A stretch of 64,000 bases of DNA from Paraspadella gotoi (GCA_051294375.1 CM119271.1:4783579-4847578), one strand, 5' to 3'; counted from the first letter of the stretch, positions 2,497 to 64,000 are shown. Program-made: numbers and translations. The notes: generated from the letters alone by a model not told the origin.

Positions 2497-3099
2497 TCAG
2501 TTAGAACAAGTAGACCGTGCAAACCCGCCATTTTTTTGGATTGCTTCCAAAACGGGTTTCAGCCATTCCTCGTCATGATTTCCTTTAAATCCGTTGTCTT
2601 GTATGCTTTGCAAGTTTTCAATGTAATCCTGGGGCAACCCGTTCTGGCGAGCTCCGGCAACGATGACGCTTTTGTAAAGCAACGACGGTTTTTCAACGTC
2701 AACGCCGTCCACATCAACAAACTCGTCGACCATCTGGTAAGTGCGGCAATTCAGTTTCTCTCCAAAATCGCGAATAGACGGAATAGGCTCCACCGTTTTT
2801 GGAAAGTAAAATTTCAAATGAACAGCCTCTTGTCGATCTAAGGCTTCCATATTGTCGTTGTGAATTTTCCAGACGGTGCCCCAAACCTCTCTTCCTTCAC
2901 TCGGAAAGATTGAGGCTCCATATCCTCCCCACGTGGTCGAAGTTGGTTCACCGCTTTTATGAGCCTTTCCGCCGAAACACAGTTTAAAGTTAGGGAGTTT
3001 AGCAGTCGTGCAGAAGATCGCCGTCGGCGAGTTTATACTTATTCTCTCTCTCAACAGATTGCTGCCATAAGCAAAATAATAAAAATAATCTCCAGGCAT
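2497..3099 (-). CDS. GGCT: Gamma-glutamylcyclotransferase (single exon)
   Basis: YFAYGSNL motif, W-G-G..ASI, VWGTVW, LDRQE catalytic Glu, and the PSxxYxxVIVAGAxQNGLPxDY tail. ATG at 3099. Confidence 0.92.
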   Translation of the reverse strand: MPGDYFYYFAYGSNLLRERISINSPTAIFCTTAKLPNFKLCFGGKAHKSGEPTSTTWGGYGASIFPSEGREVWGTVWKIHNDNMEALDRQEAVHLKFYFPKTVEPIPSIRDFGEKLNCRTYQMVDEFVDVDGVDVEKPSLLYKSVIVAGARQNGLPQDYIENLQSIQDNGFKGNHDEEWLKPVLEAIQKNGGFARSTCSN

Positions 3100-3126
3100 T
3101 TTATCTCCAATGTGTTTTTTTTCTTC

Positions 3127-3181: not shown

Positions 3182-4066
3182 TCAAGCATATTTCAATCCC
3201 CAAACGAAATCGTAATAATTCATATATTTCCAACAACCCATCATGTTGTACTTAAGACAGTAGTCTGCCGTGAACGGGTTTATATTGGCTTCCTCCAGAA
3301 TAACCTCCCTCTCCGCATTGGCGATCATCTTCTCGTGGGTGACGGCCTCGGCGTCGAAGGGCAATACGTGGGCGATATGGTTGAGCGCCCTCGCCACTTC
3401 CTCGAAGGTGCAATAACCGCCAACCTCGAGAATCACGCGTCCGGCCTTTACCGGCGTTCGGTAGTGATCGATGGATCCTTTTCCACCGCCTTTTCGCTGT
3501 CCGACTGGCCTTTTTGCCCACGATTGATGAAGCGGATCGACGCGGTACTGGGCGAAGACTCGTTTGAAATCGAGTTGCCGGTTCGTCACCTCCCGCATCA
3601 TCTCAAAGTGTTCGTGACGAAGGTAGCCACCTTGCTTGGCCACGACGCCGAATTGCTGATGAATGAGTTTGTTGTGAACGAGCTCGGGACCGCGAATCTT
3701 AATGAGGTCGCGTTTATGCTTGGGCTGCTTGCCCGGTCGGTGCCACTCGGTGTAGGTTGGTATCTTGGGATACTCTGGCAAGCGACGGGCCTCGAGCGCG
3801 TCCGACTTGCCGTGAGTTACTTCGGGGAATTCGACGTCTTTGAAGAGATCGGGATGAGGAGGATCTTGAGAGAATCGCTTGATCCCGTGCTTGCCCCGCA
3901 CTTGTGAGAAGCAGGGGATAATGGATAATGTGGACAGGACGGGAAATTGGAGAACGACGGAGGTCGAGGGAAGAATCGTTGACGTCGCCGTCGCGACGAG
4001 GGGGCGAAGTCCAAGGGAGGACAGGCCTGACCGGCCGCCCATAATGCAAAATCTACACACCGACAT
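3182..4066 (-). CDS. MRPL16: Mitochondrial ribosomal protein L16 (uL16m), single exon
   Basis: RGPELVHNKL, GGYLRHEHFEMMR, GQRKGGGKGSIDHYRTPVKAGRVILEVGG. Basic N-terminal presequence. Confidence 0.95.
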   Translation of the reverse strand: MSVCRFCIMGGRSGLSSLGLRPLVATATSTILPSTSVVLQFPVLSTLSIIPCFSQVRGKHGIKRFSQDPPHPDLFKDVEFPEVTHGKSDALEARRLPEYPKIPTYTEWHRPGKQPKHKRDLIKIRGPELVHNKLIHQQFGVVAKQGGYLRHEHFEMMREVTNRQLDFKRVFAQYRVDPLHQSWAKRPVGQRKGGGKGSIDHYRTPVKAGRVILEVGGYCTFEEVARALNHIAHVLPFDAEAVTHEKMIANAEREVILEEANINPFTADYCLKYNMMGCWKYMNYYDFVWGLKYA

Positions 4067-4992: not shown

Positions 4993-5894
4993 TCAGTGTC
5001 GGTCTTTCCGCCGCCAAAAGAAGACCTCCCACTCGACGTCGCCGTCGCGTTGCATTCCCTGCGGAACAGAAGCGTCGGGGACAATCTCGAACCGATCTTC
5101 GTCGATGGGCGGAAAGAAGAGGTCGCACTCGTAGCGGGCGTAAATCTAAGTTCATAACGGCATTGTCACATGAAAAGTGATTAAAAAACTCATTAAATAT
5201 GTAAAATATTATATAAATTATGCGCAAAAGCGTTACAAGATCTTATATTAAAGAATATTATACAAAATAGATGTAAAGGTTAAAAAAAAAATACAAATCA
5301 CACACCTGGCTTTGACAGATTCCAGAACACCAGGGATGTAACAACGCTTCTTCAAAAATATTTCTTCCCCCGAGAACCCAGACCTTTTCAATGGAATCCC
5401 GTAGAGGCGGAGTCGAAACGAGAGTCATCGCCTCGTCGAAGCTCCGCGCCAAAATCGCTCCTACGTACAAATCGTGTTAATCGTACAATCGTGTTAATCG
5501 CGTTTCATTCCTTCCACCTCATTGCTTCTTGTCATCAACCTATAATCAATTCGCCAAAGGACACACACCTTCGGGCGCGCTTTTCATGCTTCGGCTGAGG
5601 ATGATGTTGATTCGATCCGGCAAAGGGCGGACGAGCTCCTCGTGACTAATTCTCCCGTAAATGACGACGTTGCTTTTGTTCGGATCCTCGGTCGCTGTCG
5701 TCATGTGCATGTAATGATCAAACTCGCTGGAAAAGTTTTGTATTTGTTCCTCTTCATTGAAAGTGCTACTGATCATATAATCCATCGAAGCCAATCTCTC
5801 ACTTCTTAAGGTTCCACGGGAGGACGCCTCTATTTCCCATTCCTCCGCCCTCGCAGACCGCCACCATGAGGTTAAATAATTTGGGGTCGCCCAT
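4993..5894 (-). CDS. DHFR: Dihydrofolate reductase, 4 exons (5894-5803, 5726-5569, 5460-5306, 5145-4993)
   Basis: Spliced product reads MGDPKLFNLMVAVCEGGGMGNRGVLPWNLKNEFDHY...NVVIYGR...RPLPDRINIILSR...VWVLGG...YECDLFFP. The GT-AG introns keep the frame. Confidence 0.9.
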
Positions 5895-6175: not shown

Positions 6176-7929
6176 TTACGGAATAACAGAATTATCATGT
6201 CCTTCCTCCTCCCAACGCTTAAAAAGCCTGACGGCGACGTCCATAATCTCCTTCTCACTAAATTCAGACCTCGTCCTCATCAACTCTCTCGTCGCCATCC
6301 CTTCGTACTTCGACAACCTCCACGCGTCTCGCCAAACTCGCGCCGATTCTCTCTCCTCCTCTTCCGCCAGCGCCGATCGGGGTTCGGGACATCCGTAGTG
6401 ACTAAGATCGGCGACTCGAGTCTCCCTCCGCTCCTGGTGCAGCTGGTCGCAGAGAAAACACTCGAACGCGGCAACGAAAGAGTCGCGGGCGTCAACGTCG
6501 TGGCCGACGAGCCACTGGCGTCGTTCGAGGGCCTCCGTCAATCTTAGGTTTGCGATGCTCCCGCGGATCTTATGGGACAGGAACGATTCGTAGGCCGCGT
6601 CGTCGGCGTCGATGGCCTTCAAACGCGCCGCGAGATCCCGCGGATTCGGAAAGTCGGAGATAAAGACGACGCTGCGCTCGGCATCCGGAAGCCAGGACGA
6701 GGCGGACGCCTTGGAGGCGCCGAGGTAAACAGGAACCGACCCAACTCGGAGGGGGCGCCAGAGTTTCTCGGTCATGTAATCGTCGCAGAGGGCGTTTTCC
6801 ATTGAGAGAACGAATTTATATTTGGCTGAAAAAAAAAAAAAGACGAACGAATAACACCGTTTATGATCGTTTCCATTATCTTTATTATAGAAAACCCACC
6901 AGTAAGCGCGAGAAAGTCTGGGTGTGACATTCCCTCCACGGGGTCAGCCAGATGCTGGGGCAGTTGCTTGTTATTGAGGCAGGCGCCGTAAGAATCGACA
7001 TCGATGAAGCGCATGAGTTGCTCGACGAAGGCGTCGCGGTCGGACGGCGCCTCGCACGAGCTCTGCACGTACATAACAGGAGCGAATCCACGTTTCCGAA
7101 ATTCGTTCTTCCTTGTGAAAAGAAAAAACCAAGCAGTGAAACAGATTTTCGAGAAAATAAAAAAACCAAGGAGAGAAACAGATTTTCACCATAATACCAA
7201 ATTCCATGAAAGGAATCAAATCTATTTTTCCTTACTGAAGGGTTGTATGGAAATATTCGGTGGAAACGAGATCGTCCAAATTGATGACGTATTGAGTTGT
7301 GAGTGGAAAATCGCTGGTGCTTTTAAAAGTCGACGTAAAATTGAAAAGTTCCATGATCTCGAGATGAGAAAAGAGAAAACTGTTTTTAGGAGACTCCTCG
7401 TGAAGGAGCGCCCAAAGTTCACGAGTATGTCTGTAAAAATAAGGGAATGTTCTAAAATTTAACTAATAAAGGAAGAAGCGAAAATTAGATTGTATTTAAA
7501 ATACCGGGGCAAAGGAAGATCGTGGGTTTGGAAATCGGTTCCGTAGAAAAGGTAAACGATCAGATCTCGATCAACCGTCTCTCTGATGGACCTGTCCTGA
7601 ACGGTTTTTTTTTATATTTAGCTGGCACATCTACGAACTAATCAAAACGGACGTCTCACCTCAGTGAAGAAACACTCCCCCGCCCCACAGCTTCGATTGG
7701 CACCGACTTCTCCTGTGAATGGCGTCCACCAGAGGACGACGGGATTGCCGCCTGGATCACGAAGACGACGCCTCGCGATCGGCCGATTATTAGACGTCCA
7801 GTCTTCAGAGTTCATCAACATCAACCGGGCGCCATATAACATCGACGCCACGATTAGCAATAACGACAGTGCCATCGATCGACGCATACAGACGCCGATC
7901 CGAGAGAGAGAGTTGGCGGATATTGTCAT
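6176..7929 (-). CDS. GT10 fucosyltransferase, FUT10/FUT11 type, 5 exons (7929-7660, 7596-7505, 7430-7236, 7111-6900, 6825-6176)
   Basis: Type II transmembrane anchor, VLWWTPFTG, LFYGTDF..DLPLPR, WALLHEESPKN, VDSYGACLNN, YKFVLSMENALCDDYMTEKLWRPL, FECFLC. The start codon could be a slightly more downstream Met. Confidence 0.9.
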
Positions 7930-7963: not shown

Positions 7964-9898
7964 TCACAGGGAAGGCTTTCTACCGTGCAAGATGACTCGC
8001 GCGCACAACTGGTTCATGTCAAATTCTTTAAGGTGTTCGAAGTCTCTTGAACCAACGTGGATCTTTTTCCGCGATGGCACCGAATCGTTGGTTACGCTGG
8101 GTGATGATATCGAAGACGTAACAGGCGTTTCCTCCGACGCGTTCTGTCTCTCTTTTTGCTTTGTCGCGTGCTCCCCCAATTCGTAAACCATCAAGCTGTT
8201 TGTGTCATCGATTCCGACTTCCACGAACCCGATCCGGTCTAGCATTGGCTTCGCCTCTCTCAGCGGCATGAATACTCTCATGCAAACCGGCCACCGTACT
8301 CCTGGCTCTAGATCCCTTAGCAACGTGGTGCAGGCGATCGAAAAGCGCCCGCCAGGTCTCAGGACGCGAAACACCTCGCGAAACGCCTTCTCTTTGTCGG
8401 GGGCCAGGCAAAATGCACCATTAGAGATGACGACGTCTACCGAAGCGTCTTCCAACGGGACGGCCTCCATGTCTGCATTGAGAAAGACGACGCGGTCGTC
8501 GAGACCTCGCGCCGCCGCTCGTTTCGTCGCGTGCATTACTTCCCCCTTTGAGATATCCAGACCGGTGACGCGGCCGGCCTGGCCGGATCGCGCGGCGGCG
8601 ATGAAGGAGTCGACGCCCAAACCGCTGCCGAGATCTAAGACGTGATCCCCGAGGGTGACGGCAGCGTGCTTGTGGGGGTTACCAACGCCTTGGTAGTTGA
8701 AGGCGTCGGCACCGGCTATCTCTATATCCTCGTCCGAGTAGTCGAGGTATTTCAAGATGCTTTCGGCGAGAGCGGCGTCGCCGCGAAGGTGCGCCGTCTC
8801 AGAGACACGGTCATAGGCTTCGGCGATTTCCGACTTGACGTCGTTGGCGTGGTTTACGGCGCCACCATGCACCGCCGAAGAGTCGACACAGTTTTCGGGC
8901 AAAACTGTTTCATCATCATCGTCGTCGTAAAAGAAAAGAATATCGGCGGGGAACTGGTTGGTGAAACTCGGGACCTTTTCGAACGATTCGCTGGATAAAG
9001 AAGCCTCCTTTTTGTCGAGATCGTTGTTCCAGTCAATTTCGTAACGGGAAACGCTCCGAGAGGAAATGATACACGTGCGCTCCTTCGCAACACAATCAGC
9101 AACATCGACGCGCTCCGGCACGCCGAAACGGTACTCGCAGTGACCGGCTCCGCATATGACGAGGAACTTGTCGTCGGGCGACGAAGAAGCTCGGAGTGCG
9201 CTAACGATCACGCGCGCCATGGCGGCGTCCTTAAGCACTTGGGCCGGAAATATGCGACGAAATTGATCGGAAGGGGCAAGGGACAAGTCACGGCCTGAGA
9301 TGAGGCTCTCGAAGAAGCGGTAGTGATCGGGAGATCCGGGAAGAAAATTCTCGGTCCGATCAATGTAGCCGTCCTTCATGGCGGCTTCCAATCCTTCGGC
9401 CTCGCCCTCTGCCACCATCCTTTTAGCGTAGGATCGTGGAATGAACCCGGCCTTGAGTGAAACAACGTCGTTGTTGCTTCGCGCATAACGCAAGAGATTC
9501 GAGTAAGGAACGAGATCGTGCCCTTCCTCGCCAGTCTCACTGTAATCGGAGAAAAAAGTCTCCAACGACATAGCATCCGCTCCGTCCTCGCTCGACATGA
9601 ACTTGTCAACGAGCAATTGATGACGCGGACCCGCGAAGTGCTCCATGATGAGAACTACCTTGGCCCGGCGCGCCTTAGCTTCGTGAACGAGGAGATCGAG
9701 AACACATTCCTGGAAACGGACGATGCCGGGGACGCCGTGGATTTCGCCCAAATAGACGACCCTTTTGGAGCGGAGGACATCGGCTACGAAGTCGACGGAT
9801 ACGCGAGTTCCTAAGGCAGGGCTGACGAAGCGACAGTCACGGCGCTGGCTGCAGTGTTTCAGCAGTAACGGCGTCAGATACTTGACGGCCTTCTCCAT
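7964..9898 (-). CDS. Intronless 644-aa fusion: ChaN/DUF399-like domain plus ArsM/AS3MT-like class I SAM methyltransferase
   Basis: N-terminal half: VVYLGEIH, LIMEHF, QVLKDAAMA, ICGAGHCEYRFGVPER. C-terminal half: GVGNP, VLDLGSGLGVD, GLDIS, SVDVVISNG, PDKEKAFREVFRVLRPGGRF. Confidence 0.8.
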   Translation of the reverse strand: MEKAVKYLTPLLLKHCSQRRDCRFVSPALGTRVSVDFVADVLRSKRVVYLGEIHGVPGIVRFQECVLDLLVHEAKARRAKVVLIMEHFAGPRHQLLVDKFMSSEDGADAMSLETFFSDYSETGEEGHDLVPYSNLLRYARSNNDVVSLKAGFIPRSYAKRMVAEGEAEGLEAAMKDGYIDRTENFLPGSPDHYRFFESLISGRDLSLAPSDQFRRIFPAQVLKDAAMARVIVSALRASSSPDDKFLVICGAGHCEYRFGVPERVDVADCVAKERTCIISSRSVSRYEIDWNNDLDKKEASLSSESFEKVPSFTNQFPADILFFYDDDDDETVLPENCVDSSAVHGGAVNHANDVKSEIAEAYDRVSETAHLRGDAALAESILKYLDYSDEDIEIAGADAFNYQGVGNPHKHAAVTLGDHVLDLGSGLGVDSFIAAARSGQAGRVTGLDISKGEVMHATKRAAARGLDDRVVFLNADMEAVPLEDASVDVVISNGAFCLAPDKEKAFREVFRVLRPGGRFSIACTTLLRDLEPGVRWPVCMRVFMPLREAKPMLDRIGFVEVGIDDTNSLMVYELGEHATKQKERQNASEETPVTSSISSPSVTNDSVPSRKKIHVGSRDFEHLKEFDMNQLCARVILHGRKPSL

Positions 9899-10155: not shown

Positions 10156-13100
10156 TTATTTATCGATCAAGTGCTGCTTCGCGTACTCCCACATCAAAAT
10201 TGCACCGCTAACGTGAACGTTGAGAGAACGGACGACGCCGCATTGAGGGATTTCTACGCAGGCGTCGATAAGGGCGTTTCCGGCGGCTAGCATTTTGGCA
10301 GGAACACCTAGTCTCTCGTTTCCAAGCAACAAGGCCATCTTCCGTGGTAACGAATAGGTTGATAAAGGAACGCTGCGTTCTGACTGTTCCAGAGCGACTG
10401 AAAAGTAATAAAATGTACTCATAGTTTCTAAAATCAGCGTAAAAATAACACTGAAGTAACTTAAACATACCAATCTTGAAGCCTCTCTTCAGCTTAAGGA
10501 TTTCCAAGTAATCCCACAAATCTTTGACCGAAACTTCGGTGACCCTCAGCCATTTTTCCGAGGTGACGCTGAGATTTTGGAATTCCTTGTTGTCTAATAT
10601 TTTTCGATTGGACACGACCAACTCTACGACGCCGAAAATTTCCGCCGTTCTGAAATTATAAACAATTCAAAGATTACGTATCTACATTGTAAATGGAATA
10701 TTAAAATTATATGAACATGAATTTTACCATAAGTCAGAATACAAAGCACCTGCAAAGTCCGCCGAGGTTGGGGATTTTATCGAGCAGCGTCGCGACTAGA
10801 ACGAGTCCACAATCTTCGACATTCACCTCCGCTTTTCGCTTCGAACCGGCATCCTGTTCCAGCCCCGCCACGAGTGGCGAAGACGTAGGTGTGATTTTTT
10901 TCTGGACGTTAAATACGCCGCCTTCATCGTCGTTGTCGAAATCGTCGAGGGCGCGAGGAAGGCGTTTGAGACGAAGCGATTCGCAAGCAACGATAACCGT
11001 TTCCGGATCGGAGATGGGGAAAAATGACTGCGACATTGAACCTTTCTCGTCCCCACCCATCGACTCTTCAGCCGCCCGAAACTCCTCGACCCGGATCCAT
11101 TCCTCGTCCGTGACGTCGGCAATTCGGGGCAACGTCTGGAACAACGTCTCCAAAGTCAAATCCTCCAACGGGCGAAACCCGCGAAAGACGAAAAGATCTT
11201 CGACGAAGTGGCTACTCTTCTTGAGCCCGTCGCCGCGGTCGGCGTTGAAAGCGACGACGGCGTCGAGGATGCGAAACCTCGCCGACTCTTCGGCCGAGAG
11301 GCGCAGTGCGACGATGGGCCAGACGACGGCCAGCGCGGAGATGGCATAAGCGCGAGTCATGAAGTGTTGCGAGGTCGTTAGAGGAACGATGAGCGGGAAG
11401 AGGATGTCGGCAAGTCGGACAAAGAGCCCCTCGGTCGACGGCGAGATACTGTCGGCGCCGACAATAATCATGACGATCACGTCCAACAACGAACTTAAAC
11501 TTCCGACTCGTTTCGTCGGAAGGGAGCGAAAGGCGGAAACTAATGGCGCCAAATCCTCGTCTAAAGAGTTGACGTCTTTGGCCAAATTGTTTTCGCCAAG
11601 GCATTTTAATCGATCGCAAAGGATCCGCGCGATCATCCACTCTATCATAAAGCGAACTGAAACGGGAAGATTGACTCCTAAAGCAGAAAGGCAATGGTTT
11701 AGTAACCTCTGCTGAGTAGACCCGTCGCGAAGTAGCGCCGTTTGCGTCAATGTCAGAGATTGCCATGCCCGGTGATTGCGTCGATGCAGGAAAGAGTTTG
11801 CGTAGTGAGCACCTCGGCGATTTCCGTCAGAGGCGTCGGAGGAGAGGAGAATTTCATTTAGAAGGCGAAAAAAATCCAAGTAATTGGAGGATGAAGTTTC
11901 GTGGATGTAACCGTCTTTCAAAAATCTCCGAATTAACTTAACGAGAAAGACAACTGCGTGCATCCTGACCGAAGAATGAGAGAGCGGAAGTCCGTTCATA
12001 ATGGAAACAAAATTCGATCTTCCATCGGCGGTCCGTATACCACCAAGATATTTGACCGTGTCGGTCAAGTTTCGAGTGAACTTGTGATGCACAGGTCCGA
12101 ACAAGAGCAGGTCGCGAACAACGTCGGCCCAATGTATTAACGATCGCCACGCCTCCTCAGGGCGAGACTCCAACGCATAACTCCAAGTCGCAAAAAGCTT
12201 TTTCGCCAAAACGGGCGCGAGTCCGACTCGCGAGTCTGAAAGACTGAAAATTTTCGCGACCATTTCACGCAGTTTTCGATCGACACACTCGTCGTTGGAA
12301 AGAAGAAAGTCAGGGTCAAAAACAACGTCGACAAACGTTTCATACAACGACCAGAAACCGTCTTCGTTGTAAAATTCCTCTAAGAGTGAGAGCATCTTAG
12401 AGAAGCATCTTTCGACGAGGTCGTCGTCGGGAAGAGGCAGTCGCGAGGCGATCTTTCCCAAACGGCGGAAGAGATCGCGACACGAATCGAGTTTGACCAA
12501 ATCGGCGACTTGGAGAATCAACTCGCAATCCTCTCTCGCCCTTTCATCGTCGAAAAGTTCTTTGCGACGTCGCAGAATACTCCAAACGTTGCCAAGATGA
12601 AAAACCCTCAAAGGGGTCCATTTTTCATTAGCCAAACCCATCGGACAATCGAGCGGGGAGAGGAGTAAAACTTGAGGTTTTAAAACCATTCGTTCCATCA
12701 AAGAATTTGATTCCCGTTGATTTTCATAAATAATTGACCAAAAATTAACGGCACTTACTCCAACGAGGGCGTCCATAGAGCTCTTCGGTGACGCTAAGAG
12801 TTCGCACCCAAGATAGCGCATCGCGTCCAGCGCCCCTCGACTCTCGGAATCCGCGCCAAGAATCAACTGATCCGCGATTCGACGGTACAGCACCAACTCT
12901 GAGAGTCGGACGGTATCCACACAAGAAAGGAACTCTCGAAATCGGCGAAGGATAAAGTGAATAAAGTTAACTGCCATGGGTTTGAAGAGATCGTTGTAAA
13001 AATAGTTCATAAGTTTGTGAGGCAGAAAAATTTCCGCGTTCTGGGAGGCATCCCTCTTTAGAAACTCGGAAAAAGCGGAAACGACGGACAGAGAACCGAA

Positions 13101-15360
13101 TACCTTATCTTCTGAAAGGTAAGGGCGACGGAAAGCCTCTGCCGCCGCCTCCGTCCACTTTTTCATCTTTTCGATTCCCCACCCTGTGATTTTCTCGCGC
13201 TCGAGCGAAGAGTCAGAGCGCTCAGCCAAAGCAGCGGTGAAGACGAACCATTCGACGATCAGTCGCGCCGAATCTCGATCCAACTCTTCGATTTCCACCT
13301 CATCCAACTGCGCGACGGATCGAGTGACAAAAGAGTCCAACGAATTTGTAGATGCGTTTTCTTCCACCGAAGATTCGTTATCCTTTAACAGCCATAGAAA
13401 GAACCTGGTTTTCAAGTATGTTGCGTTTTGAACGTCTTCCTCTCGTCGAAGCATGTGGTCCATGAGTTTAAAGACGATCGAGGGTGAGATCAAAGATAAA
13501 TCCACCGCCTTATCCAGCATTTCGACGAAGAACGCTTTGATGGGTCTCTGGCACGCGGGGGAGTAGAAGGCCACGTTTTGAGCGACAATATCGCGGACGG
13601 CTTCGATCACCTCGGCACCGCAGGATCGAAATTGCGGAATCTCGGAAAGCGCCTCTGCCACGTAGACCAGTTGAATCTGACCCCACCTAAGAGGAATCGA
13701 AATATTTTTATTTTCAGCATCAGCAAAACATAATTTAGTACATAGCCTTTAGAATCAAATTGGTCTCTTACCTCAACGACTTAACTGCCTCTAGAAAACG
13801 AAACAAAAACTCCGGCCTCTTCGCCATCGCAGTCACAAATTCCGCCAGGGCGGCCGCGACGGGCGGTCGCTCGCCGGGCGCGAACGACTCGAGTGCGTCG
13901 TCCTCCTCGCATCCCCAACGCGAGAAGGAGTTTTCCCTATTCAGCGCCGACAACAAATCATCGGCCAAGAACGAAGCGGCATCCGGCGTCGAAATTAAAT
14001 TTCCCGCCGCGCCATCGTGCCGTCGGGGCAACGAGAGCGCCGTAGTTAACGCCCACCGCGCCACGCTGCGGCTCTCGTGCGCGAAGCCCCGACGCAAGAT
14101 GGCGCGAATCCAAACGCCGTCGGCCGACTCGGCGGTGGCAAAAGAGACGACGTCGTCGAATCGAGGCAACACGGGTTTGATTACGTGCAGCTGCTTTTCC
14201 TCCAATACTTCAAAAAGGGCGGAAAGAAGATGGCCGAAACGGAGCCAGGCACTCCGCGAAGCCGGATCTGCGGGGAGGCGAAAGCGGACGTTACCGCCAT
14301 CGATGACGCGGCTTTCGCTCGCGCTCATCACTTCCAACGTTTTCGCTAACAGATATCTTCCGCGCTTTCGAGCCGACGACCGGCTATGAGTCAGACCCGT
14401 CAGGATTAAATTCCAAAACTCCGTGGAATGAGGGAGCCGAGACGCAAGCGCATGGCGCCAAACTAAACAAGCGACGCCAAGGGCCGTTTCCGTTTTAAAA
14501 CCATAGCGCGGGTGTCCCTCGGAGGAGCGAGAGAGTTCGAGGATGACGTTCCAGACGGAGCTCAATTTAACGGCGAAAGCAGCGTCGTTTTTAGATTCGA
14601 CGGCGACATCTAAATCGCCGACGACAATTGAAGACGTCAACGCGAGAATTTTTTCCTCTGTTCCAGATTCGATCTCAATATTTTTCAAGTGGTCAAGCGC
14701 GCCGTCGAAAATGGCCGCGACGACTTTGTCGGGAATGGATCGTCGACTTGAATCGAGACTCCATACGTGGCGGACGAAAGAGAGGAAGGCGTCTGAAGGC
14801 GGGGGCGCTGTGGCGGCAAAGCATCGAGTGAGGGGAGAAAAGAATTCGAGTTTGGAATCCAAACTGAGAATAGAGAAGCAGTCGACGGTGAGTTCGGCCA
14901 AGCGCCGAATTAAAGGTTCCAAATCGTCGGCTTCACCGGGCGAACAAGCGTTATCTTCTTGGTCCCGCGATTCTCCGAAAAATTCGGCGTCGTTTTTTAA
15001 GCGAGCATGGGATTCAATAAGTCCAAAAGGTTTAAGGCAACAGGAATTGATAATCGTTAGCGAAAGTTCGGAGAGCCAGTTCGATGGTGAATCCGCAGTT
15101 GACGCGTCGCCATCGATCTTAGAATCCTCCCTCCGCCGAGACAATTCGACGAAGGCACTGAAAGTCTTGCGGCAGCGGAAAATGAAGGCGGAAAATCGTT
15201 TCGTGGTCGACGACAGCGACGAAAGGAAAAAAAGTTCGAAGGGGCGAGAGTCATCGGCAATTCTGGCGGCGACGCAGCACGCCGTCTTTTCTGGACCGTC
15301 GAGAGTCACAAAACGAAGAAGAAAATCGAGCAAGACTTCGTCGTCTTCGTCGTCCATCAT
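10156..15360 (-). CDS. TARBP1: TARBP1/Trm3 tRNA (guanosine-18 2'-O) SpoU methyltransferase, 4 exons (15360-13772, 13686-10750, 10649-10471, 10397-10156)
   Basis: Long helical N-terminus (ARKRGRYLL, LEEKQLHVIKPVL). C-terminal SPOUT motifs DKIPNLGGLCRTAEIFG, LSVTSEKW, LLLGNERLGVP, VEIPQCGVVRSLNVHVSGAILMWEY. Confidence 0.92.
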
Positions 15361-15946
15361 TTTAAATATTTGGTCGGTATCTGTCGGGATAAGATAATGA
15401 CCATAAAGCTCTATTTAACGAAATTAAATTTAAATAAGGCATATTTATATTGAAAAGGGTATGGCACTCTTATCGAAATTTTTTTGGTCTGTTTATGTAC
15501 ATAAAAGCGAAAGCCTTCGGCATTCTAGCAAATCATCCAAAATATTTCGGGTCGAGGATTTCGTTTTAATTTTTACATCATCTTGGCATGAAACGAATGA
15601 TGATGATGATGATAGCAAAGCTTTAAGATTCTTGTGTTGATGCTGCCACATTCTCTCTATATTTGTAACTACTCAAAAAATCTCCAGCGTTTAATTGCCC
15701 TCGTGTTTAGAAAAACCCCAAAAATACCAAGTGAAATTCTTAGACCCAGTATGCACAAAAAAAATTCAAAAGCGAAGTACAATCATAGAAATAACTCATC
15801 ATTTTCATCACAAAACCTTAATTCCTAGTAAGAAAAATGAACGAATTCCCAATTGTCACGACAAGCTAAAATTAAAAGTAAATTCCCTTCTCTTTCATTC
15901 TTTTTCTTTTTTTCATTCCTTCCTTTTTTTTGTTCTTCAACTCACT

Positions 15947-15949
<3 letters not shown>

Positions 15950-15998
<49 letters not shown>
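15950..15998. repeat. (CT)n/(AG)n microsatellite at the start of the GPS1 3' UTR
   Basis: About 21 perfect CT units plus a short imperfect tail, abutting the stop codon. Confidence 0.95.
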
Positions 15999-52462: not shown

Positions 52463-55400
52463 TCATAAATCGTCCTGAATCAAGTTTTCCATCCCCGCCA
52501 TGGCGTTCTTGTCCCCCGTCACGTTGCACTTGTGAATGATGGCCTTTTCGTAGGCCTTCTTCACTGCCCGCCGAACAGATTGTTTCCTCTCTCCATTGAG
52601 CTTTGCGTGGTCCAGACCAGAGTCGACGCCGAGCGGCTCGAGCTTGTTTCGCGGTAGCCACTGCCAAGTCCGCTTAGAGTCAAAGAACAATACCAGATAG
52701 TAGTGGTTCTCGACCGGCTGCAGACTCAACACCTCCTTTGGTGGGACGGGGATGGGCACGCCGTTTTGATTGACGCCAATGCGGGGCATCTTCGGATTAA
52801 TGATGAGAGCGGGATACCAGGGGTATCCGCGGCATTTGGCCCAAACGAGGTCGAGAGGCTCGAGGGGAATGATCTCATCGTCCCAGGCGGAGGAACCGCG
52901 CGATCGGCGAACGTTGGCCGCTTTCGGGAGTAACAGGGAGTTGCGTCCACCGACGACGGCGGCGTCAGCGGCACGGCGCGGCGGAGCTTTCCGCGTAGCG
53001 CCGGGATTGTTGCTACCCTCGAGAGCGAGAACCCTGTCCACGTCGCGCCCGTCGTCGTCATCCGCATCATCGTCGTCTTCGTCGGTGGTGCTGTCGCCGC
53101 TCCGCGACCCCATCGAGCTCGTCTCCATTCCCGAGTGGGAACCAGTAAAGTCCGCCACGTGCAATGACGGCCCGCTGCGACGAGGGCTGGCGTGGCTCGA
53201 AGAATTGTTGGAGAGAAGCTGAATATGCGGCATCGGGTGGTTGTGAGGCAGACTGAGAGGAGGGAGAGCGGGGTAAGTGATGTGGAGACTCGCACCGCCA
53301 CCGCCGCTGCCTCGGTCGTCGAAAGAGTTTCGCGACGACGGCGAGTGACGGACGGCGTCTACGGAATCCTTGAAGGCGGAAGGAAATCCCGACGGCGACC
53401 CGCGGAGTCCGGCGCCTTTGCGCTTTGTTAATCTCTTGTTTTTCGTCGCAAGAAGGCCGCCGACGCTGCCGCCACCGTCCCTTGACCGCCGCCGGTGAAT
53501 CCTGCTATTGTGCCGATCGTCGACGAGGCAGTTGACGCCGTTGTTGGGGGACTTTGAGGAGGAGAGACGGGAATCGGCGGAGGGCGTGAGAGGGAGGGAG
53601 GAGACCCGACTCTCGCTCATACGACTCCGTCGCTCCTCCTCCTCTTCCTCCTCGTCCTCGTCGTCGGAGGATGCCGTCTCGCTTTCGCTGCCCGTCGAGT
53701 CGGAGTCGTCCGTCTCGTCGTCGTCTGCGTCGTCGTCGTTGTCGGAAGAATCGGAACGAACAACGGCGTCTCGGCGGTACCGCTTGAAGCTTTCTTGCTC
53801 CAACTTTTTTATCAACTCTTCGTCCGGCGGGAGCGCGGTGTTTTTCTCTGAAGCGTCGTCGGCTGCGGCGTCGCCGGACAGCGTCGCCGGCGAAAACTTG
53901 ATCTGCTTGGCCGGCGTCGGGTTGAAGCGGGTCGCCCGGCCGGCAGGAGAGAAGAGCGACGGCGTCGTCGAATCCTCCGAGGATGAGATCAAAGAGTTGG
54001 GCATCTGCCGCTTCTTACCGGCGAACGGAGCCGACCTATGGGAGGTGATGATATTTAAGTGATCACGTGACTGCAAAAGTATGATACATATGCACATGAA
54101 AGTTCTTATGGTTCCTAACCGTTCTACCAATTATATACGATATAATATATGATGATTGATGAAGTTTTAAACGATTTATAAGCCTTTAAAACGTAAGTAA
54201 GACAGACCGACGGACAGACAAACATACCGACCGAAAAGTGACTTAAATTCACAACAAAATTCTGATGTCAGATTTTATTGTTTATCATTATTGTTATGCA
54301 GTTGTTTCTCTCCTTTGTTTTTCCCCTATTTGTTTTCAAATGATTAAATGAGTGCTGATTACGGGCAAAATTGTTTTAAATGTAACTTGTAAGAAAATGG
54401 TACAACTAATTAATGTAAAACACCTCGCTAATTTTTATCTTAAAAACAATTGAAGTCAATTAAAAAAAAAAAAGAAGAAGATCAAAATTCTCCCTCACAG
54501 AACCTGGACGCGGCGGCAAGGCGATCGAAGGCGTTGGATACTGAGGTGGTGGGCGTGGGCGCGGCACAGGAGGCGGAGACGGGCGTCAATGAGACCTGAA
54601 CAAAAGGAATCTGGGTCCGATTTTTCCCTCCGCCGAGGCAGCGAGTACTGTCTTTTCTCTCCCTAAAAGTTTTTCCCTGCGAAGCGTTGAGGTCAAAACC
54701 GGCGGCGCCGTTGTGCGCCGTCGTTTCGTCGTCGGAAGTGGCGCCGTTGATGGCGTGGTTGTCGGCGTCTCCGTCCTGTCGCCGACCGAAGAACGAGTTA
54801 AGTTTAGTCTGCTTCATTCGCAAAGCGCGAGCGCGACGCTTCCTGGAGGTGGACGTTGTCGACTCTCGTCTCGTGTTCGCCTTTAACGAAGACAGAACGT
54901 CGTCGTCCGTCTTGTCGTCGTCGTCGTCTTCGGTGCGATCGTCGTCTTCATCGTCGCCGTCGTCGTCTCGACTGGGAATTCTGGATCGACTTTCGCTGGA
55001 CGGAGATCGATCTACTTTGAGCGGGGACTTGACCGGTTGCTGCTTCTTCCCGCGGAAGAGGACCATACTTCTTCGATTGACGCCGCCGTTGGTCGAAGAT
55101 CGTTGATCCCCTTCGACGTCGCCAGGGGATTCCTTTTTCGCGACGCCGCCGACCACAGATTCTTCCTCCGTCGGCGAGTGAACGTTTTTAACCGGCGACG
55201 ACGAAGTGGCCGAGACGCGGGCGGGGTGACGCGGCGTGCCGGCGGCGGCGCCAAAGAGATTCGCGCCCGGCTCCAGCGGCGTGGTAGGCGGGGAGATCGG
55301 AGAAGTGGTGATGTCGTCACTGTTGACCGCCTGATTGTTGGCGGGTCGCAATGACGAAGGTTTTGATTTTCCTTTTCTACCCTTTTTCCGCCGGACGGTG

Positions 55401-58400
55401 GGTTTGGATGCGACGGAGACATCTTTGATGGACTCTTCCTCTGCGACGGTCGTTTCCGCGTCAGAGATGTTCTCCGTCTTGGCGGCGTCGTTGGGCGACT
55501 CATCGACGGAATCATTGGCGTCGCTCCGGCGCCGATTTCGCGCTCTTAATTCCGGCGCGGTTTCGACGTCGGCGTCCTCTTCCTCTTCTTCCTCTTCATC
55601 GTCGTCAGTCTTGGCCGGCGTCGTATCCTCCAAAACGATGCCCAAACCCCTCGTGCTTTGTCGCCGCGGCAAAGTGGGCGTTTTCGTCGGAGACTTGGTT
55701 TTTGAGGGCGAGGCTGGGCTGGATTTGGAGGGCGATTCGCCGCCCAAATTCTGCTGCGCCGTCAACTTCCGGCGAATGATGCCGATCTGCTTCTTGAGCT
55801 CCTTGACCCGCTTGTTGGAGACCGCCCCTGACGAACAGTTGGCCTGATCCATCTTGTTAAGCAAAATATCCAGCTGCTTTTCTAGTGGAACGTCGGAGGC
55901 TGTGAGAGACTGGATAAAAGCCTCCACATCCTCGATATCGTCCATGTGAGCATCCTCAAACGTGGCGGTCTCAGCGGTGGTGTCCTTTTCTGTCGTGACG
56001 GCGCTACGATCTTCGGGCGACAGGTGCAAGCCCGTCTCACGGTCGAATCCGATTTTCTCGTAGATGCGGCGAGCTTGCCGTAAGATGCTGCCGCCCTGGT
56101 CGCGCAACTTGATCGCAGCTCGGTAAAACATGTTGCCCTTGCCGTTGTAGCTCACGCAGTTGGAGACGATGAGCTTGAAATCGTCCTCGAATTGAGTTAC
56201 GTTTACATACTCGTTGTTTTGAATCTTTTTTCTCATGGTTCGGAAATCCATGGGGTGAGGCACACAAACATAATAGTCGGGCGCTTCCGCCGGATTCACT
56301 GGATCTGCAAAAATGTTTTGAGTGTCCTTCTCCACCAACTGGTCCAGAGTATTGCGCAAAAAGTAGTTCAGCGGCTGCAGTTCCAGTTCAACGACCAGCT
56401 GATGAATTCTAACCCGCTCCCGTTTCAGCCGCTCCCTCTTGCGAATAAGCTCTACCAGAAGTCGCGCCTTTTCCAGGTCTTGCCGCAGTCTCTGCCAATA
56501 CTTCAACTGCTCTTTCAAAGCCTGAGTCTTTTGCTCCGCGTCGAGGTCCTTCTTGGTCTGGTTGCTCATCTGCAAACGTCGCAGCAACGGAACGCCGTTT
56601 CTCGATTGTCTTTTAAGCGTCCAGTAACCTATGAGTCTTTCCATGAATTGGGCTTTTTTAGGGAGGCTGACCTTGGCCATGATTTGATTGAGGCGATGCT
56701 GGGATATGACGGGCACAGAGACCACAGGCGCGGCCACCCGCTTCTCCGCCAAAATCTTGCGCGCTTTCTTCATGTTGATCTTTGAACCGGGTTTGACGTC
56801 CTCAAATCCGTGGTCCAGCTTAGGCACCCGCGCGGGCGAGGCGTCGGCCGGCGTGTGAGCGTCGCAAAAGGCGGTCTTGGAGACTGAGTAGGTGGTACCG
56901 CGGCCAGTGTCATCCTTAATGGGCTCCATTTTCAGATAAAGTCCCGCCTGTTGAGCACAGGTCACGTGAAAGGCCGTGTAACAGTTGGCTTTGTGACACT
57001 GAATACAAGCGCCGACGTTGGTCTGTTTACAGATGTAACACTTAAGGCGCCATCGAGCGGGTGGGATGTTTTTAACCGAGTCAATAGGTTCGAGGAAGAC
57101 GGCGTTTGCGAATCCCACCTCGGGGATCCAGAGTGCGCAGACAACGTGGGCCCAAGTTGCATCGTCGGTCTGCTTGAAGGCGCCCCCTTTGTTGGGACAA
57201 AGAATGCATTCTACTGCCCTGGAGGGCGATTGGAGGCAACGCCGGCATAGCCACTGCCCCTCGGGAATGTAGGGAACACCGTAGCATTCCTGATGCACTG
57301 CCAGGTTGCACATATCGCAGAAGAGAATAACGTTGGAGTTCTGACACTCGCCGTCGTTACAGATGCAGCAGACGGCGTCTTCGTCAATCGGCGGCCCCAC
57401 GTCCTTGCCCGAAGATTTACTCTGAAAGTAAGATTCTTTCTCCAGTCGGTCCATGAGCTGCTCGAAGACTTCTTGCTTGACGGGGCCGGCGCCTTCAGCT
57501 CGACGCTTCTGATTGACAATCTCCAGCCAAGCATCGTCCTCCTCGTCCATGTCATACTCGACTTGTTCATCCAGTTCCTCTGGAGTCTTCTCCATGTAAC
57601 GATAATACGAAACGACCCGTTCTGGCACGGGCGGAAGCCGCATTGGCTGGTCGATGATGCGCCAAACGGCCTCCGGTAATTTATTCTTTCCGTCGTCGCC
57701 GCCGGGCGTGGCCGGGGGCGTGTCGCAATTGGCTCCTTTCCGCTTCATGGCGTTCTTGATGCTTTTCCGCGAAGAGAAAAGAGCGTTTTTGGCTTTTTTC
57801 GAGACTTTCGGAGTCTTTTTGGGCGAGGGAGCAACGGGCGTCGGTGGCTGTAGAGGCGGCGTGGGCGAGGGTCGAGCCGGCGCGGCGTCGTCGGCGCCCG
57901 ATGTCCCGGGCACGGCGTCGTCGCCCTTGATTTCGTTCTCTCTATTGTCGATCTCATCCTGGGTCATTATCTCGAGGTTTTCGGTGATGTTGATGCGATG
58001 CGTCTCTCCCTCAATCTCCACCTCGACGATCTTCTGGGACTGGGCGTAGGTGAGCGCCTCTCGCGGGCGCGAGGGGGCGGCGCCGCTCCCGCCGAGGCTC
58101 AGCGGCGACGAAGCGTTGTTGGGACTGCGGCAGCGGTTTTTCGGGTTGCGGGCGTCGGCGCGGCGAGACTTTTTCGAAGAGTCCGCGACGGCGGCGGCGG
58201 CAGAGTCGTTGGCGGCGGCGCCGGGCGTGCGAGGGGAGGAAGGCGTGGAGGAAGCGGAAGCGCCGTGATCATGGTTCTGCAGGTGAAACTGAATGCCGGG
58301 ATAGGATTTGTAGACACGACCGCAACCGGGGATCGGACAATCGTATGGAGGCTTGGTCGCTTTGAGGATGTCGCAAATGACCTGGACGTTGACATCAGGA

Positions 58401-58417
58401 CCGCATTGTCCCAGCAT
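52463..58417 (-). CDS. BRPF1: Peregrin/BRPF-family scaffold (C2H2, EPC, PHD-Zn knuckle-PHD, bromodomain, PWWP), 2 exons (58417-54504, 54035-52463)
   Basis: [50 protein letters not shown], bromodomain PMDF...YN, and PWWP segment [16 protein letters not shown]. Confidence 0.95.
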
Positions 58418-59003: not shown

Positions 59004-59362
59004 TTAAAAGCGCTCAGGGTCATTCCACGAAAATGGACAAAGAACCATGGTGCAAGCGCTAAACCCGTTCGTGGAACAGGTGCAATTATTGCAAGGATCG
59101 ATCCAGAACTGCATGCCGGGCATGCAAGCGTCCGGGCAACCCAATTCAGTACAGTCAGTCGGTTTGCCTCCCACACATCTGACACGGATTTTAAACAAGG
59201 TAAAATTTCAATAGGTTAAAATCTGAGCAATAGGATTGACCTGCACATATTGCAACCATCTTTTGAGAAATAATCACCCTCTCTTATGCCAGGGGGACAA
59301 ATTGCTTCTGTGGACGCAACGTATGTCAAGTACAACACGACTAAAAAATATAGTACTTTCAT
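59004..59362 (-). CDS. Secreted two-domain pacifastin-like protease inhibitor, 98 aa, 2 exons (59362-59241, 59178-59004)
   Basis: Signal peptide MKVLYFLVVLYLTYVASTEA, then C-x14-CNMCRC-VG-G-KPTD-CT-ELG-C and C-x10-CNNCTC-STN-G-FSA-CT-MVL-C. Both fit the pacifastin Cys pattern. 62-nt GT-AG intron. Confidence 0.82.
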
Positions 59363-61845: not shown

Positions 61846-64000
61846 TCAGCTGCTTTCGATCCGCATCCTGTTAGCTTTGGCCGCCGACTTTCCCGCGGCC
61901 TTGGAGGCGTGAAGATGCGGGGCGGAGAGTTTGACTTTGCCGGGGATGTTGCGGGAGAGGTCGACGTCCTTGACAGCCTTCATGAGATCTTTCTCTATTG
62001 AAGTGCAAGTCCGATCGTGAAAGAACAGATTGAGCGCCGTCTTGGCAGCCTTTCCTTTTTTATTCATCCCCGGAGTTAGTTTGACCTTGTACTTGTAATT
62101 ATTCATTACTGAGTATGGCGCGCAGACGGGGACCACGTAGAGCAGCGTATCTTCCGTCGAGGGACTTCCGGTGAGAGCGTTAATCAGAGCGAGGTCGTCG
62201 TTGCCTAGGCCGAGGCCGAGGTCTTCCGAGTCGAGATCTTCCCCCTTGATCTCGCCCCATGCCTCCACGACTCGACTCTCCATATCCCCAGCGACGGTGG
62301 CCCCGATGACCTGGCCCTCGCCGATCTTAACGGGTTCGCGGTTAGTGAACCTTTCCCTTTGCTCTTTCCGCCTTTGCTCCAACGCGGCCAATTTGATGAC
62401 CTTTTCCTTCTCTCTCATATCCTTTGCCTTTTTGCCCTTGAGTTTCTTGCCTTCGTCATCGCCTCCAGCCCGAAGGAGGGCGATAGCTCTCTCCTTGTCC
62501 TCCTCGTCTTGGTCCTTGTACTTTTCCTTTATCTTCTTCATCTTCGCCCGTTTTCCTCGTTTCATCGGTTCCGGCTGAGACGAAGGCGGTCGTTGTTCCT
62601 CCTCCGATTCGTTGTTTTTATCGTCGAGAGTTTTGTCAATCGGTCGCTCGATCGGATCCAAGCTTTCCTCATTCTCCGCCGCCTCTGAAGCCTTTTTCTG
62701 CTTCTTCTTCAACTCGCGCCTCTGTTTGGCAGAAAGTTTGGGTTTGGCGCCCGCGTCGTCCCTCGAGGCTCTCGGTCCCAGAACCAAAGGCGCCACGTGA
62801 TCTCCAAGCGTCACAATTTTCGTTCCGTCGGGTTCCTCCGTCACGTAAGAATCTTCAGTCGTCAAGTGGCCCGGGGATTCGGACATAGAAAGACTTTGAA
62901 GACCTTTAAAGGCTTGGAGCTTTACCCTATTGGATGCGTCAACTTGCATTCTGATTTCCGTGTCGGGAAAACCGACCGAGTCTTTTTCTATTTTCATCTC
63001 CTTAGATTTATCTTCAGCAGCATCTTCCCGAGGATCCTCGTCAGCGGAGGACGAAGCTCTCATTTTTATTTCACGTTCCTCCGCCTTCTTCACCTCATCG
63101 ATGTCATCTTCTTCCTCTCCTTCCGCCTCTCCCGCGTTCTCCCCTTCATCTTCGGCACTGTCATTCGCCTCGGCTTCAACCTCTTCTTCTTCATATTCGT
63201 TCAACTCATTTGCATCTTCCCTCCCCTCCTCTTCGGCAGTCTTCACCCTCCGTTCTCCTTCATGATGTTTCACGGAATCGTCGTCTAAGCGAAACATGAA
63301 ACCGAAACCCATGACTAGATAACAAGGAGGCAAGTAGTTCTTTTTCCCGCGTATCATGAATGAACCCGTCGTCAGATATTCGCCGGTCGGCGCGGTTTTG
63401 GACACCTGATGATGATGCACCCACCAGGCACTGGTTACTATCTTGGCGTCCCACGCCTGGGAGTGGCAGACCGCCATAGTCCCCGCTTCGCTCAGCGTCT
63501 TCGGAGGAATGGGACTTTGGTCCGGAGCCAAGGGGATCTCGGCTCCCGGACGATTCTTGACCACGACGGTCGAGGCACCGTGCAAATCCGCGTGGACGTA
63601 AACGTCTCCAGGTCTGAGGTATTTTTTGACGAGCAGTTCGTTTTGCTGAGCGTCTCGCCCGGCGATGACGACGTAGTTTTCCGAGGAGATAAACCATAAA
63701 AACTTTTCAAACCAGTGGGTGTGTCGGGTTTTGTTAATGGCCACGGCGGTTTGAACTTCTCTAAGTACTTGTTTCGTCTTCTTTTCAGCGTTCTTCAAGG
63801 CCTTGGTGCTTGAGTCGATAGTCTTTCCCTCCTTTTCCGACGCCTGGCGCCGGTGGTCAAAGTACTTTCTCGCGTTAGCGTGGGCGGACAATTCGAGATC
63901 GATGTCGACCCGAGTTGCGGATTTAGGATGGAAGTCTCCTTCGTAGGGATCGCTCAGCAAGAGAGTGAACGAGTCCGTCTCCAACTTAAGTCCTTTAATT
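61846..64000 (-). CDS. NEMF: Ribosome quality control subunit NEMF/Rqc2 (5'-truncated by the window edge)
   Basis: LSAHANARKYF, HWFEKFLWFISSENY, GRDAQQNE, YVHADLHGA, VSKTAPTGEYLTTGSFMIRGKKN, PVCAPY...YKYKVKLTPG. The frame is open to the window end. Confidence 0.96.
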   Translation of the reverse strand, partial: IKGLKLETDSFTLLLSDPYEGDFHPKSATRVDIDLELSAHANARKYFDHRRQASEKEGKTIDSSTKALKNAEKKTKQVLREVQTAVAINKTRHTHWFEKFLWFISSENYVVIAGRDAQQNELLVKKYLRPGDVYVHADLHGASTVVVKNRPGAEIPLAPDQSPIPPKTLSEAGTMAVCHSQAWDAKIVTSAWWVHHHQVSKTAPTGEYLTTGSFMIRGKKNYLPPCYLVMGFGFMFRLDDDSVKHHEGERRVKTAEEEGREDANELNEYEEEEVEAEANDSAEDEGENAGEAEGEEEDDIDEVKKAEEREIKMRASSSADEDPREDAAEDKSKEMKIEKDSVGFPDTEIRMQVDASNRVKLQAFKGLQSLSMSESPGHLTTEDSYVTEEPDGTKIVTLGDHVAPLVLGPRASRDDAGAKPKLSAKQRRELKKKQKKASEAAENEESLDPIERPIDKTLDDKNNESEEEQRPPSSQPEPMKRGKRAKMKKIKEKYKDQDEEDKERAIALLRAGGDDEGKKLKGKKAKDMREKEKVIKLAALEQRRKEQRERFTNREPVKIGEGQVIGATVAGDMESRVVEAWGEIKGEDLDSEDLGLGLGNDDLALINALTGSPSTEDTLLYVVPVCAPYSVMNNYKYKVKLTPGMNKKGKAAKTALNLFFHDRTCTSIEKDLMKAVKDVDLSRNIPGKVKLSAPHLHASKAAGKSAAKANRMRIESS

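What the first reader, a model, noticed from the sequence alone, without database searches (positions are those of the whole stretch)
2497..64000. Nineteen consecutive unrelated genes on one strand: a directional gene cluster in an animal genome
Seen: every host gene I can assemble across 61 kb is on the minus strand, and none are paralogs. With independent random orientation the chance is 2 x 0.5^19, about 4e-6. Known: SL-resolved operons occur in nematodes, tunicates, flatworms and chaetognaths, mostly with a few genes each, while very long unidirectional arrays typify kinetoplastids. Inference: this is either one very long polycistronic domain or several stacked operons. The proteins are metazoan-type (BRPF1, FUT10/11, MS4A-like, pacifastin), so this could be an unusually extensive system or one in an unreported lineage.
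Basis: partly seen in the sequence, partly recalled or inferred. Interest (0 to 1): 0.85.

Follow-up and report, generated by a model that had tools for sequence, protein, structure and literature searches.

The report
Stacked arrow-worm operons, nineteen genes long
Nineteen unrelated genes lie on one strand over 61 kb of an arrow-worm (chaetognath) genome, and matching RNA carries the arrow-worm spliced leader on one of them and runs across several gene gaps, so the run is likely a stack of spliced-leader-resolved operons, a system already known in this phylum, here near the upper end of reported operon length.

Summary
Observation confirmed. Nineteen host genes lie on the minus strand, 17 with Pfam support; 0 of 297 plus-strand ORFs of 50 aa or more hit Pfam. 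The animal is a chaetognath: a spliced RNA contig carries 22 non-genomic bases at RPS8's acceptor that equal the 3' end of chaetognath SL2.0, and RPS8 is 93% identical to Spadella RPS8. So this is not an unreported lineage; chaetognath SL operons are published. The lower 11 genes (NOC2L to GGCT) are tightly packed, and spliced contigs bridge four of their ten gaps. They are likely one operon, or two (5+6), against a published chaetognath maximum of nine. The upper eight genes have gaps of 0.6-2.5 kb; transposon insertions fill most of two of them. No RNA was laid there. The 4e-6 figure overstates the surprise: an operon-aware null gave a run of 19 or more in 39% of simulated genomes. Still open: a 2008 Spadella BAC lists all 14 named host entries on one strand, so long directional clusters may be a chaetognath trait. 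The scan noted similar clusters elsewhere in this genome (unchecked).

The parts
61846..64000 (-). NEMF/NFACT gene, 3' part (5' end beyond the window)
   Evidence: NFACT-R_1, NFACT-C
59004..59362 (-). small secreted pacifastin-domain gene, 2 coding exons
   Evidence: Pacifastin_I E=7e-10; sequence
52463..58417 (-). BRPF1-type PHD/bromo/PWWP gene; best acceptor candidate 269 nt after the pacifastin stop
43770..50780 (-). MS4A/CD20-like membrane gene; single-gene model across a 5.8-kb repeat-filled intron is inferred
   Evidence: CD20 E=0.021; Atlas lead 0.87
40710..42113 (-). NUDT19-like Nudix hydrolase
   Evidence: NUDIX E=5.7e-4
39888..40646 (.). TA-flanked MITE with long terminal inverted repeats; without it the NUDT19-to-AP3B1 gap is 191 nt
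34144..39757 (-). AP3B1
   Evidence: Adaptin_N, AP3B1_C
28226..33044 (-). AGL glycogen debranching enzyme
   Evidence: hDGE_amylase, GDE_C
25423..27225 (-). orphan gene (probable, unverified)
   Evidence: only open frame of six; codon score; no homologs
24739..25358 (.). repeat element with 12-nt inverted ends and a 22-nt tandem array; without it the orphan-to-NOC2L gap is about 535 nt
21633..24267 (-). NOC2L, first gene of the tight 11-gene block; RNA contig runs on unspliced upstream past 24600
20990..21454 (-). CIAO2A-like (FeS_assembly_P)
19750..20829 (-). RPS8; trans-splice acceptor AG at 20831-20830, with SL2 letters joined at 20829 in RNA
18060..19531 (-). UQCRC2 (peptidase M16 family)
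15998..17538 (-). GPS1/CSN1
10156..15380 (-). TARBP1; the RNA match stops exactly at an AG acceptor (15380) with 16 further letters that the tool did not print (leader inferred)
7964..9898 (-). intronless ChaN + class I methyltransferase gene
6176..7929 (-). FUT10/11-like fucosyltransferase; ATG 34 nt after the upstream stop
4993..5894 (-). DHFR, 4 coding exons; RNA contig length reaches about 4088, at MRPL16's predicted acceptor
3182..4066 (-). MRPL16
2497..3099 (-). GGCT-like; best acceptor candidate 55 nt after the MRPL16 stop
45079..49407 (.). LTR retrotransposon relic (two 98%-identical ~565-nt direct repeats) inside the MS4A-like intron; not counted as a host gene
490..1745 (-). tyrosine-recombinase transposon relic beyond the last host gene; not counted
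   Evidence: Phage_integrase E=7e-4

Best explanation
The run is likely a stack of several RNA polymerase II transcription units in an arrow-worm genome, including one long (11-gene) or two (5+6) operons that are likely cut into single-gene mRNAs by spliced-leader trans-splicing. Shown: all 19 genes are co-oriented. The RNA has a chaetognath SL2 leader at RPS8's unpaired 3' splice site. Spliced contigs run across four gene gaps. Inferred: a promoter upstream of NOC2L (or of the orphan gene) drives a polycistronic pre-mRNA. At each short AT-rich spacer the upstream mRNA is 3'-cleaved and the downstream gene receives a capped leader at an AG just before its ATG. A second promoter may sit in the unbridged 617-nt GPS1-TARBP1 gap. 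The upper eight genes are likely about five to seven further units, with pacifastin-BRPF1 and NUDT19-AP3B1 as probable pairs. Their shared orientation is mostly what an operon-rich, housekeeping-dense region gives by chance.
For: Leader: the contig with the exact RPS8 introns (depth 1371.7) carries 22 non-genomic letters at 20829, directly after a genomic AG. These letters have 0 matches in the window at up to 3 mismatches and equal the 3' 22 nt of SL2.0 in Table 3 of PMC2481426. Of 40 RPS8 hits, 12 carry translated chaetognath leaders, all among the 21 rows at 95-98% identity: 10 SL3.2-type and 2 SL2-frame. RPS8 is 93.3% identical to Spadella cephaloptera RPS8 and 72% to Panagrellus. Bridging: single listed pieces span UQCRC2-GPS1, TARBP1-ChaN and ChaN-FUT, and one record spans NOC2L-CIAO2A (listed piece plus difference rows of the same depth). 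The RPS8 contig reaches 17 nt from UQCRC2's AG. Stop-to-ATG gaps in the block are 178, 189, 218, 521, 637, 257, 34, 281, 926 and 82 nt. Published context: about half of P. gotoi genes are trans-spliced and 18% are in operons. An operon-aware null gives a run of 19 or more in 39% of 400 simulated genomes.
Against: The leader letters were seen at only 1 of 19 genes; at TARBP1 they are inferred from a 16-letter overhang. A contig across two genes does not prove one transcript: overlapping UTRs or pre-mRNA can be merged by the assembler, and all RNA evidence comes from one run. GPS1-TARBP1 and FUT-DHFR are not bridged in the listed pieces, and the tables were cut. The acceptor model did not discriminate: only 6 of 18 predicted acceptors scored 3 or more, against 19% of random windows. 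No promoter data exist here. The null is crude (geometric operon sizes capped at 9, P. gotoi numbers), and a run of 19 is still in its tail.
Confidence: 0.57

Rival explanations
1. Long directional clusters are a systematic chaetognath trait. Housekeeping genes sit in same-strand arrays of 10-20+ genes that are, or descend from, operons much longer than the <250-bp annotation shows. Transposon insertions and long UTRs have spread the spacers, and read-through or secondary promoters keep the genes expressed.
For: S. cephaloptera BAC 35A21: all 14 named host entries with an orientation are '+' over about 120 kb, and only transposon rows are '-'; P about 0.008 after merging pairs <1 kb apart. Removing insertions shrinks two of the eight upper gaps to 191 and about 535 nt. 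Gaps of 521 and 926 nt are bridged or reached by RNA, so distance cut-offs undercount. RNA runs unspliced upstream of NOC2L to about 24747.
Against: The BAC test is post hoc. Unnamed gene models are not listed, one entry has no orientation, one start coordinate is a misprint that I read as about 100187, and two entries may be one gene. P. gotoi candidate operons average 2.35 genes (5,061 in 2,151). This window was picked from a scan for being extreme. Five upper gaps of 1.0-2.5 kb show no clear insertion. No second chaetognath genomic locus was recovered.
Confidence: 0.28
2. All 19 or more genes form one kinetoplastid-like polycistronic unit from a single promoter beyond the right end of the window.
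For: No plus-strand gene was found. The genes are functionally unrelated, as in trypanosomatid units. Some long gaps are explained by insertions.
Against: Gaps of 1.0-2.5 kb remain, several with GC- or CT-rich islands that look promoter-like (near 33100-33340 and 59850-60500; by eye). Depth dips in the GPS1-TARBP1 bin (a weak hint, part of the bin is a skipped repeat). The run includes a secreted inhibitor and a membrane gene, classes reported as depleted from operons. Chaetognaths keep ordinary regulatory elements.
Confidence: 0.1
3. Each gene has its own promoter, some with outron trans-splicing; co-orientation is chance and the contigs merge overlapping UTRs.
For: Trans-splicing also acts on non-operonic genes in chaetognaths. 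Contigs cannot prove single transcripts.
Against: Stop-to-ATG spacers of 34 and 82 nt, and a 3' end 17 nt from the next acceptor, leave almost no room for promoters. Independent orientation gives only 0.04 such runs per genome.
Confidence: 0.05

Closest known systems
Chaetognath SL-resolved operons (Spadella cephaloptera RPS14-PCNA, PMC2481426; Paraspadella gotoi genome-wide set, PMC12460157)
   Same: Same phylum and same leader family (SL2.0). Housekeeping genes head to tail, with an upstream 3' end next to the downstream acceptor (17 nt here, 3 nt for RPS14-PCNA).
   Different: The tight block has 11 genes against a reported maximum of nine, and some spacers exceed 250 bp stop-to-ATG but are filled by UTR. 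Eight more co-oriented genes lie upstream. The species is not determined; it could be P. gotoi, whose operon table (xlsx) could not be read.
Tunicate operons (Ciona, Oikopleura; PMC4122922, PMC7986045)
   Same: Unrelated genes, very short spacers, no operon-specific leader needed; up to 11 genes reported.
   Different: Different phylum and leader; spacers here are mostly longer (34-926 nt stop-to-ATG).
Trypanosomatid polycistronic transcription units / directional gene clusters (bioRxiv 10.64898/2026.07.29.740908; PMC8061765)
   Same: Long same-strand run of unrelated genes with a spliced leader. Nineteen genes lies between the animal mean of about 2 and the trypanosomatid mean of about 30 per directon.
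   Different: Genes here have ordinary cis-introns, only about half of chaetognath genes are trans-spliced, and a single start site is not shown.

Membership tests
Chaetognath SL-resolved operon | Host is a chaetognath | tested here: met
   SL2.0 letters on a matching RNA contig; RPS8 93.3% to S. cephaloptera
Chaetognath SL-resolved operon | Two or more genes head to tail on one strand with very short spacers (<250 bp between gene models) | tested here: met
   5 of 10 block gaps are <250 nt even stop-to-ATG, 2 more are 257 and 281 nt; two longer ones are bridged or reached by RNA
Chaetognath SL-resolved operon | At least one gene, ideally a downstream one, receives a spliced leader | tested here: met
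   RPS8, third gene of the block, at 20829; TARBP1 inferred only
Chaetognath SL-resolved operon | Polycistronic RNA across the spacers | tested here: inconclusive
   Spliced contigs bridge 4 of 10 block gaps and reach the next acceptor in 2 more by length; contigs do not prove single molecules
Chaetognath SL-resolved operon | No internal promoters | not testable with these tools
   Needs CAGE, ATAC or H3K4me3
Kinetoplastid-type polycistronic transcription unit | Long co-directional run of unrelated genes | tested here: met
   19 genes, none found on the plus strand
Kinetoplastid-type polycistronic transcription unit | Largely intronless genes | tested here: not met
   GT-AG introns in DHFR, RPS8, GPS1, UQCRC2 confirmed by RNA; many more in AP3B1 by sequence
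Kinetoplastid-type polycistronic transcription unit | Every mRNA of the run receives the leader | tested here: inconclusive
   Leader letters seen at 1 of 19 genes; only 4800-24600 laid; tables cut
Kinetoplastid-type polycistronic transcription unit | One shared start site for the whole run | not testable with these tools
   Needs 5' end or nascent RNA data
Kinetoplastid-type polycistronic transcription unit | Genome-wide organisation in long directons | not testable with these tools
   No genome held; one published BAC points the same way

The most novel reading that the evidence does not exclude
Arrow-worm housekeeping genes are laid out in long directional clusters of 15-20+ genes over 60-120 kb, far beyond the animal average of about two genes per run. 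These clusters are real or relict polycistronic domains whose spacers were stretched by transposons and long UTRs, so the published nine-gene maximum is an artefact of the 250-bp rule. Chaetognaths would then be an animal partway toward trypanosome-style genome architecture.
Probability: 0.3. Interest if true: 0.72.

Novelty: new member of a known kind. Interest (0 to 1): 0.36.

Why it matters
As it stands, this is a long example of a known system: a candidate 11-gene operon, against nine reported for chaetognaths and 11 for tunicates. It also shows that fixed distance cut-offs can undercount operons when UTRs or MITEs fill the spacers. If long directional clusters prove general in chaetognaths, the phylum would give an animal test of how trans-splicing lets promoters be lost and genes line up, the path proposed for trypanosomatids. 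That can be tested at once on the public P. gotoi annotation and ATAC data.

Tried and rejected
No whole genome is held, so genome-wide run lengths could not be computed. The run search listed no holder on record as RNA; X1 proved spliced when laid. X2 gave only two short identical pieces; X3 and X4 are diverged relatives and were not used for bridging. RNA could be laid only on 4800-24600, so the upper eight genes and MRPL16-GGCT have no RNA test. The metagenome scan with GPS1 returned 10 loci at 43-78% identity, none chaetognath-like, so synteny is untested. The acceptor weight matrix did not discriminate. The codon model found no plus-strand island but misses AT-rich exons. My FUT and TARBP1 exon joins were off at some boundaries and were not used; the element-3 line is wrong and was not used. 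An apparent extra ORF at 4949-5242 is DHFR's last exon. The GPS1 search gave no named chaetognath, with molluscs and nemerteans at about 75%; the name came through the RPS8 cluster. No tree was built, because the leader and RPS8 identity settled the phylum. No homologs were found for the orphan. Rfam and tRNA scans were empty, so no SL RNA gene was detected here. Literature searches found no paper describing chaetognath strand runs. 'Strand' and 'orientation' do not occur in the main text of PMC12460157, but PMC2481426 already remarks that several BAC genes are clustered and share orientation. The P. gotoi supplementary xlsx was too large to read and may already list this operon; the preprint's supplements were not seen.

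Full report
1. Observation. Six-frame translation and Pfam scans show 19 host genes, all on the minus strand, between 2497 and 64000. Seventeen have Pfam support at E<=0.01 among the 66 minus-strand ORFs I chose to scan. The MS4A-like gene has weak support (CD20 E=0.021; Atlas lead). The orphan at 25423-27225 has no homolog but is the only open frame of six over 285 codons. On the plus strand, 0 of 297 ORFs of 50 aa or more hit Pfam, and 1 of 150 short ORFs scanned (of 154) gave a sub-threshold hit at a repeat junction. No tRNA or Rfam family was found. A lineage-specific or AT-rich plus-strand gene could still be missed. Gene symbols are my labels from recall; domains come from the calls.

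2. The organism. Run X1 holds spliced contigs nearly identical to the window: 0-3 differences in pieces of up to 2.9 kb. The contig with RPS8's three introns carries 22 letters at 20829 that are not in the window and follow a genomic AG. They equal the 3' end of chaetognath SL2.0 in Table 3 of PMC2481426 (passages read). Independently, 12 of 40 RPS8 hits, all among the 21 at 95-98% identity, begin with translated chaetognath leaders. The spliced window RPS8 is 93.3% identical to Spadella cephaloptera RPS8 isoform 1, 72% to Panagrellus and 64% to an ape sequence. The host is a chaetognath. I did not determine the species.

3. Anatomy. Stop-to-ATG gaps, in transcription order, are 2483, 586, 1682, 1656, 952, 1099, 1000 and 1155 nt for the upper genes. 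For the block NOC2L to GGCT they are 178, 189, 218, 521, 637, 257, 34, 281, 926 and 82 nt. Coding density is 77% in the block and 50% above it. In one search, one spliced 8,659-nt contig covers TARBP1, the ChaN-methyltransferase gene and the fucosyltransferase. Its match stops exactly at the AG before TARBP1, with 16 unprinted letters beyond (a leader is inferred). A spliced 3,276-nt contig covers UQCRC2 and GPS1, and a 3,740-nt contig covers NOC2L and CIAO2A. By length arithmetic, the last reaches 27 nt past RPS8's acceptor and also runs upstream to about 24747, and the DHFR contig ends at about 4088, at MRPL16's predicted acceptor. The RPS8 contig reaches 17 nt from UQCRC2's AG. GPS1-TARBP1 and FUT-DHFR are not bridged in the pieces listed; the tables were cut (15 of 34 joints, 32 of 346 pieces shown). 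MRPL16-GGCT and everything above 24600 have no RNA test. Two upper gaps are mostly insertions. A TA-flanked MITE leaves 191 nt between NUDT19 and AP3B1 when removed, and a 620-nt repeat leaves about 535 nt between the orphan and NOC2L. No such element is evident in the other five gaps of 1 kb or more, although elements present once in the window cannot be seen without the genome.

4. Is 19 more than chance? For independent genes, a 21,072-gene genome has 0.04 such runs. With P. gotoi-like operons (2,151 holding 5,061 genes, capped at nine) shuffled as units, the expectation is 0.475 per genome, and 39% of 400 simulated genomes have one. If the window holds 8 units, about 71 such runs are expected. 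The run rules out fully independent genes but needs nothing beyond known operons. The null is crude, and the run may extend past the window.

5. Mechanism. Most likely (0.57) the run is several transcription units. The lower block is one operon, or two split at GPS1-TARBP1, processed by 3' cleavage of each upstream mRNA and leader addition at the next AG. The leader on RPS8, co-orientation and spliced bridging are shown. Single-molecule polycistrons, leaders on the other genes and the positions of promoters are inferred. Rivals are systematic long directional clusters (0.28), a single 61-kb unit (0.10) and independent promoters (0.05). The best support for the first rival is outside the window. 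Table S5 of PMC2481426 (supplementary file 2 read whole) lists 14 named host entries of an S. cephaloptera BAC, all '+', over about 120 kb, with only transposon rows on '-' (P about 0.008 after merging close pairs). That test is post hoc, omits unnamed models and includes one misprinted coordinate.

6. Comparison. PMC12460157 (abstract, outline and passages of results and methods; supplements searched; xlsx unreadable) reports trans-splicing of nearly half of P. gotoi genes, 18% in operons, a 250-bp rule and a longest operon of nine genes. PMC4122922 (passages) gives up to 11 genes for tunicates. PMC7986045 and PMC11067885 (passages) give cut-offs of 60-500 bp. The preprint 10.64898/2026.07.29.740908 (passages) gives about 2 genes per same-strand run in animals and about 30 in trypanosomatids; PMC8061765 (passages) describes euglenozoan polycistrons. 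The block meets the tested criteria of a chaetognath operon. The run works like a directional cluster in layout but fails kinetoplastid membership on introns, and the single-promoter criterion is untested. Six searches found no description of chaetognath strand runs; the 2008 paper does note co-oriented clustered genes on its BAC.

7. Earlier scan notes (AI notes, not checked here) describe a nine-gene and a 14-gene co-oriented housekeeping cluster on other pieces of this genome. The second has an antisense gene threaded through it, which prompted the short-ORF check. They are leads, not evidence.

8. Verdict. The feature is real and the phylum is known to have SL operons: a new, long member of a known kind, interest 0.36. 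The open, testable question is whether chaetognath same-strand runs exceed what annotated operons explain (probability 0.3, interest 0.72 if true).

Noticed in passing
window 7964-9898 (-): Intronless gene fusing a ChaN/Tiki-type domain to a class I methyltransferase. Full-length relatives exist at 39-59% identity; of six looked up, five are unnamed and one comes from a protist transcriptome set. Function and origin are unexplored.
   Followed up: partly
window 7930-7963 (-): Only 34 nt separate the methyltransferase stop from the fucosyltransferase ATG, with no good acceptor (score -8). The pair may stay dicistronic or use a weak AAG site.
   Followed up: no
window 19568 and 20829: The X1 RPS8 contig joins the 3' end region (19568) to the truncated leader plus 5' end (20829), with no poly(A) between. 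Probably a library or assembly chimera; unexplained.
   Followed up: no
window 9960-9986: The X1 contig lacks 27 nt that include the predicted AG acceptor before the ChaN-methyltransferase gene; it is one base short of a GT-AG intron. Probably an allele.
   Followed up: no
window 39888-40646: TA-flanked MITE with 46-nt, 98% complementary terminal repeats, inserted in what was a 191-nt spacer. A natural test of whether an operon junction survives an insertion.
   Followed up: partly
window 24739-25358 and about 44576-50085: Two copies of a repeat with 12-nt inverted ends and a 22-nt tandem array, resembling a DINE-1/Helentron-type element (label recalled, untested). The second copy is split by an LTR relic at 45079-49407.
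   Followed up: partly
window 25423-27225 (-): Orphan three-exon gene candidate with no homolog in Pfam, the protein search or the Atlas.
   Followed up: partly
window 19750-20800: X1 also holds diverged RPS8 contigs with other letters at the exon joints, consistent with the duplicated ribosomal protein genes reported for chaetognaths.
   Followed up: no
window 4457-4714: Small element with 14-nt inverted ends inside the long DHFR 3' region.
   Followed up: no
window 58507-58644 (-): A 46-codon upstream ORF lies between the best acceptor candidate and the BRPF1 ATG.
   Followed up: no
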